Below, in pieces: positions 5,626-12,564 of a stretch of 18,339 nt of DNA (its first letter is position 1; each line of letters opens with the position of its first letter). The translations under genes and the position numbers were made by a program. Below the pieces are notes generated by a model. That model ran no database searches. It was not told the DNA's origin and was given only the letters and a program-made list of their open reading frames with translations. The DNA is from a virus, in UHGV virus genome UHGV-0075702. One strand, 5' to 3'.

Positions 5626-5961
5626 TCAAATAAGTGGTTTGCTGCCTAATTTCATTTTCTGGCGACCAACACAAGTCACACCCATTTCACTGCGTGGCTT
5701 GCGGTAGTAAATACGGTTCTGTTTACTCTCGACTTCTTCTGCCTTCTTGCAGCGAAGGCTTCCGAGTGATATTGCTTTTTCAGAAAGGCTTAAACGCTTT
5801 CTCGGGGCTTCCTGAACAGGTTCCTCACTGTCTGTACTGAAGATCGAATCGATGATGTTGCAGATGGCATCACGCTCGATAGCCAGCTTTCTGCGCCGCT
5901 CATGACGGCGAGTTTTGGCATTTCCTGCAAATGTTGATTTCCCGTACACGATTACCGTCAT
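5626..5961 (-). CDS. N: N-type transcription antitermination protein
   Basis: C-terminus ...GVTCVGRQKMKLGSKPLI resembles lambda N (...GITCSGRQKIKGKSIPLI from memory), with an Arg-rich N-terminus (AKTRRHERRRK). Start taken at the internal ATG with GAGGAAAA RBS. nut-like sites lie upstream. Confidence 0.75.
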   Translation of the reverse strand: MTVIVYGKSTFAGNAKTRRHERRRKLAIERDAICNIIDSIFSTDSEEPVQEAPRKRLSLSEKAISLGSLRCKKAEEVESKQNRIYYRKPRSEMGVTCVGRQKMKLGSKPLI

Positions 5962-6080
5962 GATATTTTCCTCATGTGAAATGGCTTTGGTGGTGATGCG
6001 CCAGATGCTGATCTTCTGGTTGCTGTCGTTGCAGCTGCAATTCACATCACCGCCAAACCCATCTCGTTTGGTATCTGTTT

Positions 6081-6410: not shown

Positions 6411-6590
6411 TTACAGAGCAAAGAGATCATGCATTAGGTTGCTGTTCATCTGGTGGTTGAATTGATACGGCTCCAATTCCTTCTTGATCTCGTTCAGGTG
6501 TTGTTCCGCTTTTTTTGCCAGATCGTGACCTTCTTGGATCTGGCTTTCCAACATCTTGTTGAGAATTTCCATCTCCGGTTGCAGATTCTT
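6411..6590 (-). CDS. alternative-frame small ORF (59 aa, MPKNLQPEMEILNKMLESQIQEGHDLAKKAEQHLNEIKKELEPYQ...) overlapping the 3' end of the peptidase ORF
   Basis: Part of track ORF 6411..6686. GAGG 9 nt before the ATG; helical-looking sequence with E. coli-preferred codons (ctg, gcg, ccg, aac, atc), whereas the overlapping peptidase frame uses rarer codons. Only one of the two frames is likely coding here. Confidence 0.25.
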   Translation of the reverse strand, partial: KNLQPEMEILNKMLESQIQEGHDLAKKAEQHLNEIKKELEPYQFNHQMNSNLMHDLFAL

Positions 6591-7428
6591 CGGCATTAGC
6601 TTTTTCCTCTTTTTGTAGATACGTTGTACAATCAATAACCCTCGGCTTTCCAAATGTTGGAATGTCACCATTATGAATTTTGTCACAGAAAAGATTATAG
6701 AGTATTTCTGTTATACCTTTAGGATGCTCAACACACTTGAAAAGTTCCTTGGCTTCTTTTCTGTCGATAACAAATCCATGTGAAGGATATGAGGCTATTA
6801 GTTTGCCTAACGCCCCTTCTTTTAGGCTGCTTGGTTTGTCTGCTAATCGTTGGCCATAAGTGATAGCTATACTCATTGCGCGCTGATGTTCACCAAGCTT
6901 TATTGGATCTATCTGTGCGGCCATAGGTGCTATCAACGCTTCTGTAAGTCTGGTCGCGATATCAGCAGACATTTTGGTACTTATCTGATTTTCGTATCTT
7001 ATCTTAACAAGGTGTGAGTTAAACGCTGAAATAGAGCGTTCCTTTAGAGCATCAAGAGCTGTCATGATAGCTAAACCAGAACTCATCTCACCTATTTCAT
7101 CGTTTTTTTTCAGTTGGATATCTAATGGCCCAAGCTCCCCCATGTCACCAATAACAAGTTTATTGGCTGCTATAGCTATTAGTGTACCAGCACTTTTGCA
7201 TGGTCCAACAACTAAAAGTGTTACCGTTTCATAATGGTGCTGTAGAGCTCTACCTATACGATAACCTGCATTTGGATCACCGCCATAAGTAGCAACACAG
7301 AAGATAACATTCTCTTTTAATCCATGTTGTGACTTACGTTTCTTGATTTCATTGGTGAGATCAAGATAACCATCACGATGAATATCGCCTGTATACACAT
7401 AAACATCATGATTTTCAATAGAATTCAT
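6427..7428 (-). CDS. Clp-fold serine peptidase (SDH / SppA-S49-like) at the position lambda uses for rexAB
   Basis: The segment VIFCVATYGGDPNAGYRIGRALQ...LLVVGPCKSAGTLIAIAANKLVIGDMGELGPLDIQ follows the pattern I recall for SDH-family/S49 proteases (...SPGG...ALR...MSGGTLIALAADEIVM...LGPVDPQ). GGGAG RBS. The body from about 6600 to 7428 is visibly AT-rich. The last ~85 codons are low-complexity, so the 3' end is uncertain. Confidence 0.65.
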   Translation of the reverse strand: MNSIENHDVYVYTGDIHRDGYLDLTNEIKKRKSQHGLKENVIFCVATYGGDPNAGYRIGRALQHHYETVTLLVVGPCKSAGTLIAIAANKLVIGDMGELGPLDIQLKKNDEIGEMSSGLAIMTALDALKERSISAFNSHLVKIRYENQISTKMSADIATRLTEALIAPMAAQIDPIKLGEHQRAMSIAITYGQRLADKPSSLKEGALGKLIASYPSHGFVIDRKEAKELFKCVEHPKGITEILYNLFCDKIHNGDIPTFGKPRVIDCTTYLQKEEKANAEESATGDGNSQQDVGKPDPRRSRSGKKSGTTPERDQEGIGAVSIQPPDEQQPNA

Positions 7429-7594: not shown

Positions 7595-8302
7595 TCACGA
7601 ACTTTTCAGCCACTCCCTTGCCTCGATGTCATCCAGATGGCGAGATTGCTTCAGAATACCAGCCACATACTCCACCTTTGCTACTTGATGATAAGGCAAC
7701 GTTATTGGCCTGTGGTCCTGGTTGATGCTTGTAAATTGGTATTCTCCGTCTCTGTCATAGCCAAGAACTTTGATCATGTTGTGTCCTTCAACAGTTCTGA
7801 CAAACACCTCATCACCCGGGAATACTTTGGTGTTAGGCTCAATGAGTACATATTCTCCTGATTTTATTCTGGGCCACATGCTGTCTCCTTTCACACGAAG
7901 ACCAAAGGCATCTGGATCATCGCTATAAATCTTGAGCCACCCATCGCGCTCTTCGGTCATCTCGATGGCACCATCAACACCAAGAATTGCCTCACCAACC
8001 ACGCGCACTAACCCTTTTTTTAATTTGCCAACAAATGAAAGAGTATCTTCATCATTCGCTCCATTTAACGAAGTGCCGTGCTGAAGCCAAACAACATCAA
8101 CGTTTAGAAATTTCGCAAGCGCATTCATTTTTTCCTGACGCGGTAAAGACTCAGCATTAAACCATTTGCTAACGCCTTTGGACGAAAGAGAAAGGGCACG
8201 GGCTATGGCCATCCCCCTACCATGTTCATCAAGACCAGCTTCTTTACAGGCTTGCGCTAGCCGCTGGGCGAATTCTTTGCGCACTTTTTCATTCTGAACC
8301 AT
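7595..8302 (-). CDS. cI: CI-type prophage repressor (N-terminal HTH plus C-terminal S24/LexA-like autocleavage domain)
   Basis: 235-aa ORF with an HTH-like N-terminal region and a C-terminal region containing G-D-S-M (LRVKGDSMWPRIKSGEYVLIEP), typical of the S24 Ser-Lys dyad. Divergent from cro across a 78-bp operator region. Confidence 0.9.
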   Translation of the reverse strand: MVQNEKVRKEFAQRLAQACKEAGLDEHGRGMAIARALSLSSKGVSKWFNAESLPRQEKMNALAKFLNVDVVWLQHGTSLNGANDEDTLSFVGKLKKGLVRVVGEAILGVDGAIEMTEERDGWLKIYSDDPDAFGLRVKGDSMWPRIKSGEYVLIEPNTKVFPGDEVFVRTVEGHNMIKVLGYDRDGEYQFTSINQDHRPITLPYHQVAKVEYVAGILKQSRHLDDIEAREWLKSS

Positions 8303-8714: not shown

Positions 8715-9011
8715 ATGGAACAAACAAGTTACAGCAAACTATCACAGCGCGACGTTGATCGCGCAGAAACAGATTTACTTATCAACCTGTCAGCGATTAC
8801 CCAGCGCGGTCTGGCAAAGATGATTGGCTGTCATGAATCGAAGATAAGCAGAACGGACTGGCGGTTTATTGCTTCGGTTCTGTGTGCTTTCGGAATGGCA
8901 TCGGACATCAGTCCGATTAGCAGGGCTTTTAAGTATGCGCTTGATGGAATCACAAAGAAAAAATCCCCGGCCGCCACCGAGGATTTTAAGCAAATTGATA
9001 TGCAATTCTGA
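8715..9011 (+). CDS. cII: CII transcriptional activator
   Basis: C-terminus ...[18 protein letters not shown] resembles lambda CII ...KKRPAATERSEQIQMEF (from memory), with an HTH-like centre ([16 protein letters not shown]). Confidence 0.85.
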
Positions 9012-9190: not shown

Positions 9191-10082
9191 CATATCTAAT
9201 CTAGCCGAAGCCAGAGAGGCCAGAAGGCTACAACAACCGCATCAAAGCAGCGGTAAGGGGTATGCCTTGCTGCACCGTAAAATTATGGATGTGCCGTTTT
9301 ACAAGGACGCAGAAGCTGCACATCTGTGGGTTCACTTAATCCTCAAAGCAAAGCATACGCCTGAGTATGTAATGACTGACGCAGGAGAAATTCTGGTAGG
9401 CAGAGGGAAGCTACTTGGCGGTAGAAACTCTCTGGCGTTTGAAACAGGACTCAAACCAGATCGCGTTCAGTACCTGCTTAGAAAGTTCAAAAAACTCGGC
9501 ATGATTGACTGGGTTTCACACGGTAAATTCTCAGTTTTCTCGGTAGAGAAATATGACGATTATCAGTCAAATTTTGTACCAGTAGATTACCAGCAAATTA
9601 CCACCTCAAAGCCAGCAATACCAATGCCTGTAAGCAATGCTGTACCAGCAGATTACCAGCAAATTACCACAGATAAAGAATATAGTAATATTATCTCTAA
9701 TACTGACGTATTAGAGAGTGCCACAGCAGACAAAAAGTCTGACAAGAAAAAACCTTCCGTCAGCTGTCAGGATGTTGTCGATGCTTACCACGAAATCCTT
9801 CCTGAAGCGCCAAGAATCCGCGCACTGAATGACAAGCGTAAAAACCAGATCCGAACGTTCTGGCGCAAAGCCGGAGTGATAACCCGCCAGCTTGACGGGC
9901 ATGGGTTCACGATGCAGGACTGGAGAAATTATTTGAGCTACGTAGGCGAAAATTGTCGATGGATGTTCGAAGAGCGTCCAAACCATCAACGCGGAACTGT
10001 CTGGCACAAAAAGGGATTTGATTACCTGCTTAACGATAATACCTACCTGAAAGTTCGTGAGGGTGAACACGATGACCGATAA
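9183..10082 (+). CDS. replication initiator (lambda O / P22 gp18-like) with internal origin repeats
   Basis: 299-aa ORF upstream of and coupled to a DnaB-type helicase. N-terminal winged-helix-like region, a duplicated linker peptide ([13 protein letters not shown] / [13 protein letters not shown]) encoded by the iteron-like DNA repeats, then a C-terminal domain. Confidence 0.7.
9576..9715. repeat. ori candidate: two 30-bp direct repeats (iteron-like, each with 2 copies of ATTACCA) followed by an AT-rich tract
   Basis: tgtaccagtagattaccagcaaattaccac (9576..9605) and tgtaccagcagattaccagcaaattaccac (9641..9670) differ at 1 position. Downstream lies an AT-rich stretch (agataaagaatatagtaatattatctctaatactg). 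Layout parallels lambda ori inside O. Confidence 0.45.
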
Positions 10083-11508
10083 TTTTTATGCGCCGCCCCA
10101 TAGCATCGAGGCAGAGCAGGCGGTGATTGGTGGATTGCTTCTGGATGATGACAGCAGTGAGCGCGTCCAGAAAGTTCTGGCAATGCTGAAGCCTGATTCA
10201 TTTTACAGCCGACCACACAAAATCCTTTTCGAAGAAATAACCAGAATGCACCGTGAGCAAAAGCCAGTAGATGGCCTGACGCTTTTCGATGAACTGGAGC
10301 GTAAATCGTTAACGGCGTCTGTTGGCGGTTTTGCTTATATCGCTGAGATCGCAAAGAACACGCCAAGCGCAGCAAACATCGTTGCCTATGCAATGCAGGT
10401 TCGTGAAACCGCAATGGAACGCTACGCCATCAACCGCATGACTGAAGCGACGGAATTGCTCTATTCCCGCAACGGAATGACTGCAACGCAGAAGTACGAA
10501 GCTATTCAGGCAATTTTCACGCAACTGACAGACCATGCAAAAACCGGATCGCGTCGCGGCCTTCGCTCATTTGGTGAGGTCATGGAAGACTGGGTTAGCG
10601 ACCTTGAGAAGCGATTTGACCCGTCAGGCGAACAACGAGGAATGAGCACAGGGATCCCATCGCTGGACAGGATGCTGTCACCGAAAGGTCTGGTGAAAGG
10701 CTCTCTGTTTGTCATTGGCGCTCGCCCTAAGATGGGGAAAACGACGCTATACAGCCAGATGGCAATCAACTGCGCAGTGTATGAGAAAAAGCCCGCTCTG
10801 ATGTTCAGCCTTGAAATGCCAGGTGATCAGATACTGGAAAAACTGGTAGGGCAGAAGTCTGGTGTTAACCCGAATATTTTTTACCTTCCGGCGACAAATG
10901 ACGCCGATGACGGCTATCAGGGTGATTACGATGGTGACTTCAACAGGGCGATCGAAACAGCCAATCGCTTGAGTGAAATCGACATGCTTTACATCGACGA
11001 CACGCCGGGATTATCTCTGGCTCAAATCGTCAGCGAAAGCCGTCGAATCAAGCGAGAAAAAGGATGTGTTGGCATGATTCTGGTCGATTACCTGACACTA
11101 ATGACCGCTGAGAAGGCCGATCGCAACGACCTTGCTTACGGCATGATCACCAAAGGACTGAAGAACCTTGCCAAAGAGCTTGATTGCGTTGTTGTGCTTC
11201 TGACGCAGCTTAACCGCGCACTGGAAAGCCGAACCAATAAACGCCCATTACCAAGTGACTCGCGCGATACAGGGCAGATTGAACAGGATTGCGATTATTG
11301 GGTGGGGATCCATCGTGAAGGTGCTTTTGATGACAGTGTTCCACCTGGTGAAACCGAACTAATCCTTCGTCTCAACCGTCATGGCAATACCGGCACGGTG
11401 TATTGCATTCAGGCAAATGGCGCTATTTATGACACAGACCAACAGTCTGCTGAAATGCGCCGCCGTGAACGCGAGGAGCCGCAGTCCAAGAAGAAAGGAG
11501 GATTCTGA
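10072..11508 (+). CDS. DnaB-family replicative DNA helicase (P22 gp12-type)
   Basis: Start at the internal ATG overlapping the O-like stop. DnaB N-terminal signature (SIEAEQAVIGGLLLD), Walker A (GARPKMGKTT) and downstream helicase motifs (ILVDYLTLM, VVLLTQLNR). Confidence 0.9.
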   Translation: MTDNFYAPPHSIEAEQAVIGGLLLDDDSSERVQKVLAMLKPDSFYSRPHKILFEEITRMHREQKPVDGLTLFDELERKSLTASVGGFAYIAEIAKNTPSAANIVAYAMQVRETAMERYAINRMTEATELLYSRNGMTATQKYEAIQAIFTQLTDHAKTGSRRGLRSFGEVMEDWVSDLEKRFDPSGEQRGMSTGIPSLDRMLSPKGLVKGSLFVIGARPKMGKTTLYSQMAINCAVYEKKPALMFSLEMPGDQILEKLVGQKSGVNPNIFYLPATNDADDGYQGDYDGDFNRAIETANRLSEIDMLYIDDTPGLSLAQIVSESRRIKREKGCVGMILVDYLTLMTAEKADRNDLAYGMITKGLKNLAKELDCVVVLLTQLNRALESRTNKRPLPSDSRDTGQIEQDCDYWVGIHREGAFDDSVPPGETELILRLNRHGNTGTVYCIQANGAIYDTDQQSAEMRRREREEPQSKKKGGF

Positions 11509-11591
11509 TGACCATCTACATCACTGAGCTAATAACAGGCCTGCTGGTAATCGCAGGCTTTTTTATTTGGGGGAGAGTAAATCGTGGCTGA
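11508..11591 (+). CDS. tiny hydrophobic ORF (27 aa, MTIYITELITGLLVIAGFFIWGRVNRG)
   Basis: Not in ORF track. ATG overlaps the helicase TGA (TGATG). Single predicted TM-like segment. Expression unverified. Confidence 0.25.
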   Translation: MTIYITELITGLLVIAGFFIWGRVNRG

Positions 11592-11910
11592 CGGGCAAAT
11601 TCCAATCATCATTCTTGCCGGAGCTTCGCTGGTTGCTGGCTTTATCCTGCTGAAAAAGCATAAAGACCGTGATCAAAAAGTCAAAGTTCTCTATGGGTAT
11701 CCAGCGAACAGCACAACATGGCTGACCATTTACCACTACCGAAAATCAGGCCGCTGGGTATTCGAATGGGATGATCTGTTCGCTGAAAAGCGACCAAAGT
11801 CATGGGGAGACATCAGCGAATGCATGATGTTTGAAGAAAGAAAATCCGGCGCAACCCGAGAAGAGTTTAACGAAGCGTGGAGGCGATTAAGTGAGAGAGG
11901 GTATCAATGA
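11584..11910 (+). CDS. small membrane-anchored protein (108 aa) at the ren-equivalent position
   Basis: GTG start with GGGGGAGAG RBS 6 nt upstream. N-terminal hydrophobic helix (IPIIILAGASLVAGFILL) followed by a charged soluble domain. No family recognised; not lambda Ren. Confidence 0.5.
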   Translation: MADGQIPIIILAGASLVAGFILLKKHKDRDQKVKVLYGYPANSTTWLTIYHYRKSGRWVFEWDDLFAEKRPKSWGDISECMMFEERKSGATREEFNEAWRRLSERGYQ

Positions 11911-12123
11911 GCAGAATTAAATCTGGTTATCCAGGGAATGGGGAATACCCGAAGCCATATTTACCTGTAACAGTGACCACTTAATCTAAGCATCCACATC
12001 ATTTCAAGCATAGTGGTACAGCTTATTGGAGTGGCAAGCGGTGGATAGGTATTGATGGGTTCAAAATTGGGTATGCAAAGGTAATTAAATGGGAATTTAA
12101 CATCGCACACTGGAGTTCATCCC

Positions 12124-12564
12124 ATGAGGAAACTAACGTTTGAACTAAGAAGCCACGTCCATCAGCAGAACGCCATTCAAGCCATCCAGCAAATCCTTCC
12201 AGACCCAACCAAACCAATCGTAGTAACCATTCAGGAGCGCAACCGCAGCTTAGACCAAAATCGGAAGCTTTGGGCTTGTCTTGGTGACGTTTCGCGTCAG
12301 GTTGAATGGCATGGTCGCTGGCTGGATGCAGAAAGCTGGAAGTGTGTGTTTACCGCAGCATTAAAGCAGCAGGACGTTGTTCCTAACCTTGCCGGGAATG
12401 GCTTTGTGGTAATAGGCCAGTCAACCAGCAGAATGCGTGTAAGCGAATTTGCGGAGCTATTAGAGCTTATACAGGCATTCGGTACAGAGCGTGGCGTTAA
12501 GTGGTCAGACGAAGCGCGACTGGCTCTGGAGTGGAAAGCGAGATGGGGAGATCGGGCTGCATGA
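12124..12564 (+). CDS. ninB: NinB (Orf family recombination protein)
   Basis: 146-aa translation is near-identical to lambda NinB as I recall it (MRKLTFELRSHVHQQNAIQAIQQILPDPTKPIVVTIQERNRSLDQNRKLWACLGDVSRQVEWHGRWLDAESWKCVF...). Confidence 0.9.
   Translation: MRKLTFELRSHVHQQNAIQAIQQILPDPTKPIVVTIQERNRSLDQNRKLWACLGDVSRQVEWHGRWLDAESWKCVFTAALKQQDVVPNLAGNGFVVIGQSTSRMRVSEFAELLELIQAFGTERGVKWSDEARLALEWKARWGDRAA

What the first reader, a model, noticed from the sequence alone, without database searches (positions are those of the whole stretch)
11508..11910. Two small membrane proteins translationally coupled to the replicative helicase, at the ren-equivalent locus
The helicase stop overlaps the ATG of a 27-codon hydrophobic ORF (TGATG), whose end overlaps a GTG-initiated 108-aa protein with an N-terminal TM helix and a charged soluble domain. 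Neither resembles lambda Ren. In lambda, ren at this position is tied to the Rex exclusion phenotype, so a membrane-anchored replacement is a plausible exclusion or defence-related gene.
Basis: partly seen in the sequence, partly recalled or inferred. Interest (0 to 1): 0.5.

Follow-up and report, generated by a model that had tools for sequence, protein, structure and literature searches.

The report
Lambdoid tR2/ninA module plus Sf6 gp46
The two small ORFs exist as described, but the first is the long-known ninA mini-ORF that wraps the tR2 terminator of lambda-like phages, and the second is a copy of Shigella phage Sf6 gene 46, an uncharacterised accessory gene that sits alongside Ren in some phages rather than replacing it.

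Summary
The ORF geometry is confirmed: helicase stop TGA 11506-11508 overlaps ATG 11508, the 27-codon ORF runs 11508-11591, and a GTG-started 108-codon ORF runs 11584-11910. Both are already annotated, at 97% nucleotide identity, in phage Sf6 as genes 45 and 46.

**27-codon ORF.** It is ninA. It contains the tR2 intrinsic terminator (hairpin 11537-11560 plus U-tract) and equals the Sf6 "boundary sequence" bsq6. Lambda carries the same element directly after ren, so it is not a ren substitute. Its hydrophobic residues come from the hairpin and U-tract codons. It does seem to be translated:
- every one of at least five upstream gene-end types carries a Shine-Dalgarno core 6-8 nt before its ATG;
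- codons 2-11 show an excess of synonymous changes;
- a published reporter study found the start site active.

**108-aa protein.** It belongs to a small phage-only family (phrog_5903). It has an N-terminal membrane anchor and a roughly 75-aa domain with no sequence or fold match of known function. Relatives in virulent phages lack the anchor. It occurs behind intact ren in two phages. It has no promoter-like site of its own and no defence-family match.

Verdict: ordinary and already catalogued; function of the 108-aa protein unknown.

The parts
10057..11508 (+). DnaB-like replicative helicase. PGAP starts the homologous gene at the position equal to 10072. The last codons, KKKGGF*, carry the SD for ninA.
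   Evidence: Pfam DnaB and DnaB_C, E 3e-31 and 7e-60. The HK620 helicase ORF read from the homologous GTG start is near-identical in translation. PGAP annotation.
11496..11501 (+). Shine-Dalgarno AGGAGG, 6 nt before the ninA ATG
   Evidence: Read from the sequence. An SD core at spacing 6-8 is present in all upstream contexts of 133 copies; about 4% per context is expected by chance.
11508..11591 (+). ninA mini-ORF (27 codons). It equals Sf6 gene 45 / boundary sequence bsq6 and HK620 ninA.
   Evidence: Megablast to Sf6, HK620, lambda and 314 phage records. Annotations. phrog_5907, E 2e-17. Identical core in lambda after ren.
11537..11568 (+). tR2 intrinsic terminator: stem-loop 11537-11560 and U-tract TTTTTTATTT. 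In this window the stem base is C to T, giving a G.U pair and a longer U run.
   Evidence: Terminator scan. Folds. Annotated as tR2 in Sf6 and HK620. Alternative stems with compensatory changes in L040 and L070.
11569..11577 (+). SD GGGGGAGAG serving the gene after tR2 (here the 108-aa gene; in lambda, ninB)
   Evidence: Sequence. Conserved in front of at least 6 different downstream genes.
11584..11910 (+). 108-aa protein. It equals Sf6 gp46, WP_000796283.1 and phrog_5903.
   Evidence: 96% amino-acid identity to Sf6 gp46 and to the phage Oslo homologue. phrog_5903, E 2.4e-73. 58 homologous clusters. AlphaFold2 mean pLDDT 85.8.
11599..11652 (+). N-terminal hydrophobic anchor (residues 6-23), followed by KKHKDRDQK. 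Inferred topology: N-terminus out, C-terminus in.
   Evidence: Kyte-Doolittle 2.28. Helix 5-27 in the model. Hydrophobic but not sequence-conserved in the alignment. Topology inferred from the positive-inside rule.
11674..11907 (+). Conserved soluble domain (residues 31-108), with motifs YGYP, TWLTIYH, FEWDDLF and RP
   Evidence: Invariant columns. Strands 32-39, 46-52, 57-63 and 81-84 and helix 92-104. Present without an anchor in Goslar and IME207.
11907..11984 (+). 25-codon stump of a 78-codon gene (phrog_29435), ATGA-coupled to the 108-aa gene and cut by a TAA at codon 26
12124..12564 (+). ninB, the gene that directly follows tR2 in lambda
   Evidence: Pfam NinB, E 2e-54; lambda layout

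Best explanation
The interval is the start of the nin region of an Sf6/HK620-like lambdoid prophage.

**The first 84 bp: the tR2 module**
It consists, in order, of:
- an SD and an ATG fused to the stop codon of whatever gene lies upstream;
- a 29-nt spacer;
- the tR2 hairpin and U-tract;
- an SD (GGGGGAGAG);
- the start codon of whatever gene follows.

tR2 stops pR transcripts that are not modified by the phage N protein (inferred from lambda biology; an N gene lies at 5626-6045 on the minus strand). The mini-ORF ninA spans the module and is probably translated. I read it mainly as a translational bridge. It would pass ribosomes from the replication gene across the terminator to the next start codon on read-through transcripts. 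This is inferred. Its hydrophobic sequence follows from the terminator codons (CUG CUG GUA AUC GCA GGC UUU UUU AUU).

**The 108-aa ORF**
It is a real delayed-early accessory gene of the Sf6 gp46 family. It has a single-pass anchor (N-terminus out, C-terminus in) that holds a roughly 75-aa cytoplasmic alpha/beta domain at the inner membrane.

My best guess at function, at low confidence, is that the domain binds a cytoplasmic host or phage partner during lytic development. The partner may be connected with DNA replication, because homologues are often found in the replication/early-gene region. I do not think it is a Ren substitute or a defence gene expressed from the prophage.
For: **Identity**
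- 97% nucleotide identity to Sf6 genes 44-46, where ninA, tR2 and bsq6 are annotated. HK620 carries the ninA and tR2 annotations.
- The lambda element after ren is identical in its core.

**Terminator**
- Terminator scan and folds.
- Three different stems, each followed by a U-tract: GGCCTGC/GCAGGCC, GGGGCTA/TAGCCCC and GGCCAC/GTGGCC.
- It is the only strong + strand terminator-like site between pR and Q.

**Peptide sequence after the U-tract is not conserved**
- Leu13 to Gln in the hairpin loop (seven loci), a +1 T frameshift, a premature stop and a 1-nt deletion.

**Translation of ninA**
- SD core in all upstream contexts.
- 9 of 14 distinct substitutions in codons 2-11 are synonymous, against 27-30% expected (P 0.003-0.008).
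- Li et al. 2015 (PMC4824070) found the lambda NinA start "not weak" in a reporter, lowering tR2 efficiency by only about 10%. They also found that tR2 needs about 30 bp from the upstream stop. They cite Kroger and Hobom 1982 and the lambda ribosome-profiling study for NinA.

**The 108-aa protein**
- Conserved family.
- Confident structure model.
- Anchor-free homologues in virulent phages.
- Neighbours are lambda-P-like, DnaB, primase-helicase or DNA polymerase A genes.
- Found behind five kinds of upstream gene end, including intact ren.
Against: - No experiment on this sequence. The bridge role of ninA is an inference.
- The synonymous excess rests on 14 substitution types.
- A minus-strand frame (11516-11605) shares its wobble positions with ninA. 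It could in principle mimic the codon periodicity, although its start lies in the variable flank.
- Proximity to replication genes may reflect only shared early timing. One homologue (L161) sits among small ORFs with no replication gene within the 3.5 kb fetched on either side, and in L127 the next replication-type gene is one ORF away.
- A natural in-frame ninA-gp46 fusion exists in 23 contigs. This fits the idea that the two products work together in the membrane.
Confidence: 0.75

Rival explanations
1. NinA is a functional 25-27-residue membrane peptide in its own right. It may work together with the membrane-anchored 108-aa protein or with other small membrane proteins encoded in the slot after tR2.
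For: - Selected SD and ATG, and an excess of synonymous changes in codons 2-11.
- The ORF stays open through three different hairpin versions.
- An in-frame ninA-gp46 fusion caused by a 1-nt deletion persists in 23 contigs.
- HK620 has a 68-aa ORF in the same slot whose sequence shows two long hydrophobic stretches (phrog_1165).
Against: - The hydrophobic core coincides exactly with the hairpin and U-tract, and it changes with the stem.
- Leu13 to Gln, frameshifts and a stop after the U-tract are tolerated.
- The C-terminus varies with the downstream junction.
- ninA occurs in about a third of complete E. coli genomes whatever gene follows it.
- The fusion is a homopolymer slip, and the 108-aa gene keeps its own SD and GTG.
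Confidence: 0.12
2. The 27-codon ORF is not translated at all. It is an accidental open frame over a conserved terminator and recombination linker.
For: - A 27-codon open frame is not rare by chance.
- PGAP does not call it.
- Conservation is at the nucleotide level across mosaic flanks.
- Frameshifted variants exist.
Against: - An SD core at the right spacing in every upstream gene-end type examined.
- Substitutions by codon position 3:1:2 are 9:4:1, with a synonymous excess.
- Reporter evidence for an active start (PMC4824070).
- Stop-start overlaps at both ends in most variants.
Confidence: 0.1
3. One reading: the 108-aa membrane protein is an exclusion or defence gene that takes the place of ren.
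For: - It is a membrane-anchored small protein of unknown function in a variable prophage slot.
- No housekeeping function was found for it.
Against: - It co-occurs with intact ren.
- Lambda ninA/tR2 follows ren.
- No PADLOC match.
- No promoter-like site of its own, and a position behind tR2.
- Soluble homologues in the virulent phages Goslar and IME207 and in DNA-polymerase-A phages.
Confidence: 0.08

Closest known systems
Lambda tR2 / ninA (Kroger and Hobom 1982 'chain of interlinked genes'); Sf6 gene 45 with boundary sequence bsq6; HK620 and P22 ninA
   Same: - Same sequence: lambda core identical, Sf6 97%.
- Same hairpin and U-tract.
- Same stop-start overlaps.
- Same place at the end of the replication module.
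- phrog_5907 match.
   Different: - This window has C to T at the stem base (L18F, a G.U pair and a longer U run).
- The upstream gene is a DnaB-type helicase rather than ren.
- The downstream junction is the GTAAATCGTGGCTGA type rather than lambda's GGGAAGTCATGA.
Shigella phage Sf6 gene 46 protein (AAQ12235.1); Salmonella phage Oslo AMBK_59; E. coli WP_000796283.1; phrog_5903
   Same: - 96% amino-acid identity to the Sf6 and Oslo proteins.
- Same length, same GTG start and same slot after tR2.
   Different: - A few substitutions, for example G4 where most copies have W.
- The gene downstream differs from Sf6 gene 47.
Lambda Ren
   Same: A small, non-essential protein encoded on the pR operon after the replication genes.
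   Different: - No sequence similarity.
- ren lies upstream of tR2, whereas this gene lies downstream.
- Both occur together in L017 and L051.
- Ren has no hydrophobic anchor.
Pfam DUF1660 (prophage protein) / phrog_2670
   Same: One distant, Cys/His-bearing family member (P0076) gives sub-threshold hits (Pfam E 0.0025, 18.8 bits against a cutoff of 21.4).
   Different: - Below threshold.
- The window protein itself gives no hit and lacks the Cys/His pairs.
- DUF1660 also has no known function.

Membership tests
Lambdoid tR2 / ninA boundary module | Nucleotide homology to the lambda tR2 region | tested here: met
   21-nt core identical in lambda; alignment with lambda and Sf6; 314 phage records match.
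Lambdoid tR2 / ninA boundary module | GC-rich hairpin followed by a U-tract on the pR-transcribed strand | tested here: met
   Stem-loop 11537-11560 plus TTTTTTATTT; folding energy -14.6 kcal/mol.
Lambdoid tR2 / ninA boundary module | Starts at the stop codon of the last gene before the nin region and ends at the start of the next gene | tested here: met
   TGATG at 11506-11510 and the GTG/TGA overlap at 11584-11591; the same layout in 133 copies.
Lambdoid tR2 / ninA boundary module | Terminates transcription and is overridden by N | not testable with these tools
   Only the presence of an N-family gene (5626-6045, minus strand; Pfam N_peptide) and published lambda data (PMC4824070).
NinA protein family (phrog_5907) | Profile match over the full length | tested here: met
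   E 2.2e-17 over residues 1-26 of 27.
Sf6 gp46 family (phrog_5903) | Full-length profile match and the conserved motifs YGYP, TWLTxYH, FEWDDLF and RP | tested here: met
   E 2.4e-73 over residues 1-108; invariant columns.
Lambda Ren | Sequence similarity to Ren | tested here: not met
   Best BLASTP segment is 19 aa with E 0.03 in a single pairwise comparison.
Lambda Ren | Located between P and tR2, occupying that slot exclusively | tested here: not met
   The gene lies after tR2, and it co-occurs with intact ren in L017 and L051.
Lambda Ren | Protects the phage from Rex exclusion | not testable with these tools
   Needs an experiment.
Known anti-phage defence systems (PADLOC-DB 2.0) | Match to any defence-protein model | tested here: not met
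   No family at E up to 1 for either ORF.
Single-pass inner-membrane protein | Hydrophobic helix of about 19 residues with flanking positive charges | tested here: met
   Kyte-Doolittle 2.28 from residue 5; helix 5-27; KKHKDRDQK follows. Actual insertion and topology were not tested.

The most novel reading that the evidence does not exclude
NinA is a genuinely functional micro membrane protein found across lambdoid phages. The interchangeable small hydrophobic-segment proteins encoded right after it would be its partners. These are the gp46 family here and the 68-aa phrog_1165 protein in HK620. Together they would form a membrane module that acts in lytic development, for example in exclusion or in tethering replication to the membrane. 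The naturally occurring in-frame NinA-gp46 fusion would then be a 'Rosetta stone' for that partnership.
Probability: 0.07. Interest if true: 0.55.

Novelty: already known. Interest (0 to 1): 0.15.

Why it matters
It matters little as a discovery. Both ORFs were annotated in Sf6 and its relatives about twenty years ago, and tR2 is textbook lambda biology.

Two points are of modest value:
- The ninA/tR2 module is a clear case of one short sequence carrying several functions at once: a stop, a start, a terminator and the next gene's ribosome-binding site. The comparative data here (an SD kept in every upstream gene-end type examined, and a synonymous excess in codons 2-11) add support to the view that the mini-ORF is really translated.
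- The gp46 family is a small, phage-only family. It has a confidently predicted fold without known relatives, and both anchored and soluble versions exist. That makes it a reasonable target for a function screen.

Tried and rejected
**Searches on the two ORFs that found nothing useful**
- Pfam, NCBIfam and PADLOC: no hits. A scan of all 30 aligned homologues gave only weak matches to short single-pass membrane-protein families such as FixQ, probably through the hydrophobic segment.
- Profile search of PDB sequences: nothing.
- Exhaustive HMM search of 1.8 billion representatives: only 36 small stand-alone proteins, none with an informative extra domain.

**Leads that did not hold**
- The 34-aa hydrophobic variant ORF in L012 and L087 first looked like evidence for selection on a peptide without a terminator. 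It turned out to be an HNH-AP2 homing endonuclease gene inserted inside the element, with tR2 intact after it.
- The 133-137-aa "fused" proteins first looked like a two-helix ancestral form. In the variant examined (P0006) the fusion comes from a 1-nt deletion in the G5 run; the junctions of the others were not examined.
- I considered a clamp-binding or SSB-tail-like reading of WDDLF and dropped it, because the motif lies in the folded core of the model.

**Not available**
- The lambda ribosome-profiling paper (PMC3718152) could not be read.
Full report
**1. Observation**

- A DnaB-type helicase (Pfam DnaB and DnaB_C) ends with TGA at 11506-11508.
- The A of that stop is the A of ATG 11508-11510. 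That ATG opens a 27-codon ORF, MTIYITELITGLLVIAGFFIWGRVNRG, ending with TGA at 11589-11591.
- GTG at 11584 opens a 108-codon ORF that ends at 11910.
- Both ORFs have a 19-residue window above the usual hydropathy threshold for a membrane helix (1.99 and 2.28).
- Neither resembles lambda Ren.

**2. Both ORFs are already in the databases**

- Megablast of 11400-12000 finds Shigella phage Sf6 at 97% identity over 505 nt. Another 312 phage records share the first 192 nt, that is, the helicase end plus the small ORF.
- In Sf6 the small ORF is "gene 45, similar to phage 21 NinA". It is overlaid by two further annotations: "bsq6; boundary sequence" and "terminator, homology to phage lambda; tR2". The 108-codon ORF is "gene 46 protein".
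- HK620 annotates the same ORF as ninA, with tR2 inside it.
- Salmonella phage Oslo has the 108-aa gene after a different replication gene, a primase/helicase.
- PGAP calls the 108-aa protein WP_000796283.1 (hypothetical) with the same GTG start, and it does not call ninA.
- The ninA element occurs in 1773 of 5426 complete E. coli genomes. The full arrangement of ninA, the 108-aa gene and ninB occurs in 25.

**3. This is not the ren locus**

- Lambda carries the same element directly after ren: ATGACCATCTACATTACTGAGCTAATAACAGGCCTGCTGGTAATCGCAGGCCTTTTTATTTGGGGGAGAGGGAAGTCATGA. Its ATG overlaps the ren stop (ATGA), and its stop overlaps the ninB start (ATGA).
- Two IMG/VR phages (L017, L051) have intact ren, then ninA/tR2, then the 108-aa gene in series.
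- So neither ORF replaces ren. The 108-aa gene occupies the slot between tR2 and ninB, which is empty in lambda.

**4. Anatomy of the 84-nt module**

I extracted copies from IMG/VR loci and the other fetched records with three patterns: 115, a set anchored on the 3' side and 133.

*Layout*
- The element always begins exactly at the stop codon of the upstream gene.
- Five upstream gene-end types are distinguishable by their C-terminal residues: ren (GVKR*), HK022-type DnaB (GGF*), P22-type DnaB (GADV*), a primase/helicase (TEY*) and an ExxQ* family. Their relatedness was judged only from these last residues and 20-nt ends; the ExxQ* gene was not identified.
- The element ends with the SD GGGGGAGAG and the start codon of at least six different downstream genes.
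- Inside it lies the hairpin AGGCCTGC-TGGTAATC-GCAGGCTT (11537-11560) followed by TTTTTTATTT.

*Evidence that the terminator structure is what is conserved here*
- Two rarer versions replace the stem with GGGGCTA/TAGCCCC (L040, L044, L074, L082) or GGCCAC/GTGGCC (L070). Each keeps the U-tract and folds well, with z-scores of -4.4 and -3.2.
- Within the canonical version, changes are confined to three kinds of site: the loop (CTG to CAG, Leu13 to Gln, seven loci), G.U-compatible stem positions, and the stem base.
- After the U-tract there are a +1 T frameshift (L047), a premature stop (L099), a 1-nt deletion (L021) and many different C-termini.
- The hydrophobic residues GLLVIAGFFIW are the hairpin and U-tract read as codons. 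So the hydrophobicity is explained without invoking a membrane function.
- This is the only strong + strand terminator-like site between the pR region and the Q gene. An N-family antiterminator gene is present at 5626-6045 on the minus strand.

**5. ninA nevertheless seems to be translated**

- Every upstream gene end carries GGAG, AGGAGG or GGGG at 6-8 nt before the ATG. A random 20-mer does so about 4% of the time. In this window the SD is AGGAGG at 11496-11501.
- In codons 2-11, 9 of 14 distinct substitution types are synonymous, against 27-30% expected (P = 0.003-0.008). Substitutions by codon position 3:1:2 are 9:4:1, and the five amino-acid changes are conservative.
- Li et al. 2015 (PMC4824070) put the natural lambda sequence in front of tR2. 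They concluded that the NinA initiation site is "not weak" and that it lowers termination by only about 10%. They also found that tR2 needs roughly 30 bp of distance from an upstream stop codon to work fully. That figure matches the 29-nt spacer here.
- For NinA they cite Kroger and Hobom 1982 and the lambda ribosome-profiling study. I could not read the latter.

*Caveats*
- The substitution sample is small.
- A minus-strand frame (11516-11605) shares wobble positions with ninA, but its start lies in the variable flank.

*My reading.* This part is inferred. ninA is a short translated bridge. It lets ribosomes leaving the replication gene cross the roughly 75-nt terminator gap on read-through transcripts. 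It delivers them to the next start codon.

**6. Two apparent exceptions, both explained**

- L012 and L087 seemed to encode a different 34-aa hydrophobic peptide without a terminator. In fact an HNH_3-AP2 homing endonuclease gene is inserted inside the element. The insertion lies between CTAATAGCAGG and GCCTGCTGG, and tR2 reappears intact after it.
- Proteins of 133-137 aa that join NinA to the 108-aa protein were examined in one case, P0006. There the fusion arises from a single-base deletion in the G5 run. This variant is found in 23 contigs, in the loci examined after a DnaB-type helicase with two different 3' ends, so it is a real and tolerated variant. It keeps the SD and GTG of the 108-aa gene.

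**7. The 108-aa protein**

*Family*
- The word-indexed search found 58 clusters. An exhaustive HMM search of 1.8 billion representatives found 36, all stand-alone proteins of 73-133 aa apart from one 3904-aa protein matched only in short repeated stretches.
- The core is strongly conserved: YGYP, TWLTIYH, R53, FEWDDLF and RP. The N-terminal segment is conserved only in being hydrophobic.

*Structure*
- AlphaFold2 with the family alignment gives mean pLDDT 85.8. The model has helix 5-27, strands 32-39, 46-52, 57-63 and 81-84, and helix 92-104.
- The anchor is followed by KKHKDRDQK. By the positive-inside rule this suggests the N-terminus is outside and the domain is cytoplasmic (inferred).

*Anchor-free relatives*
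- Homologues in the virulent phages Goslar (106 aa) and IME207 (87 aa), and many metagenomic members, have no anchor.
- Some distant members carry C/H..H plus CxxC pairs, which suggests a lost zinc knuckle. One gives a sub-threshold DUF1660 hit.

*No functional lead*

*Genomic neighbourhood*
- In lambdoid phages the gene lies between the replication genes and ninB/Q, either directly after the replication gene or a few small ORFs further on.
- In other phages it follows DNA polymerase A, directly or after an intervening HNH endonuclease gene, or sits between primase/helicase and helicase genes.
- One homologue sits among small ORFs with no replication gene within the 3.5 kb fetched on either side.

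*Expression*
- There is no + strand promoter-like site near the gene, and it lies behind tR2. I therefore infer that its expression depends on N and occurs during lytic growth.

*Conclusion*
- I conclude that it is a delayed-early accessory protein acting in the cytoplasm at the membrane.
- I hold only weakly to the idea that it has a partner related to replication.
- Nothing supports the exclusion or defence idea, but it is not formally excluded.

**8. Verdict**

- The ren-replacement idea is refuted by the co-occurrence with ren.
- The first "membrane protein" is the ninA/tR2 module.
- The second is Sf6 gp46, whose function remains unknown.

Noticed in passing
L012 6334-7079 (also L087 and L139): An HNH_3 + AP2 homing endonuclease gene (L012 6416-7027) is inserted inside the conserved ninA/tR2 element. 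It lies between CTAATAGCAGG and GCCTGCTGGTAATCGC, and the terminator is intact after it. The highly conserved boundary sequence may therefore serve as a homing site.
   Followed up: partly
window 11907-12143: A 78-codon gene (phrog_29435, intact in L157 1899-2135) is ATGA-coupled to the 108-aa gene. In this window it is cut by a TAA at codon 26 (11982-11984; AAA or CAA in relatives). In E. coli AVS0578, HNH endonuclease genes lie just after this region, in front of ninB.
   Followed up: partly
window 6427-7428 (- strand): A 333-aa ORF directly downstream of the CI repressor gene (7595-8302, minus strand) and upstream of N. This is the slot where lambda has rexAB. It gives weak Pfam hits to ClpP-like/SDH-type serine proteases, matches phrog_21683 (unknown function) and has no PADLOC hit. 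It is a better candidate for a lysogen-expressed exclusion gene than the finding under review.
   Followed up: partly
L002 (HK620) 1685-1891: An unannotated 68-aa GTG-started ORF with two long hydrophobic stretches (phrog_1165) fills the gap between ninA/tR2 and ninB in HK620. It begins with the same GTGGCTGA junction as the 108-aa gene. Related starts (GTGGCTGAGTT, GTGGTTGAGTT) occur in many IMG/VR loci. The slot after tR2 repeatedly holds small ORFs with hydrophobic segments.
   Followed up: partly
L157-L159 1501-1902 (P0006); other fused proteins P0001, P0002, P0004, P0011: A natural in-frame fusion of ninA to the 108-aa ORF, caused in P0006 by a 1-nt deletion in the G5 run just after the tR2 U-tract. 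The P0006 form is found in 23 contigs from independent samples, behind two different helicase 3' ends.
   Followed up: yes
L040, L044, L074, L082 and L070 (element copies listed): Alternative tR2 versions with entirely different, compensating stems (GGGGCTA/TAGCCCC and GGCCAC/GTGGCC) sit behind the same 5' 32 nt. In L070 the ninA frame runs on into a 109-aa ORF.
   Followed up: partly
P0071, P0072, P0073, P0076, P0080, P0081, P0085: Distant members of the 108-aa family carry a C/H-x-x-H pair and a CxxC pair flanking the first strands. This is probably a zinc knuckle that the window protein has lost. P0076 gives a sub-threshold Pfam DUF1660 hit.
   Followed up: partly
window 8960-8987 (- strand): A strong 12-bp terminator-like hairpin on the minus strand inside the cII gene (8715-9011). 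Its position fits the oop RNA terminator of lambdoid phages.
   Followed up: no
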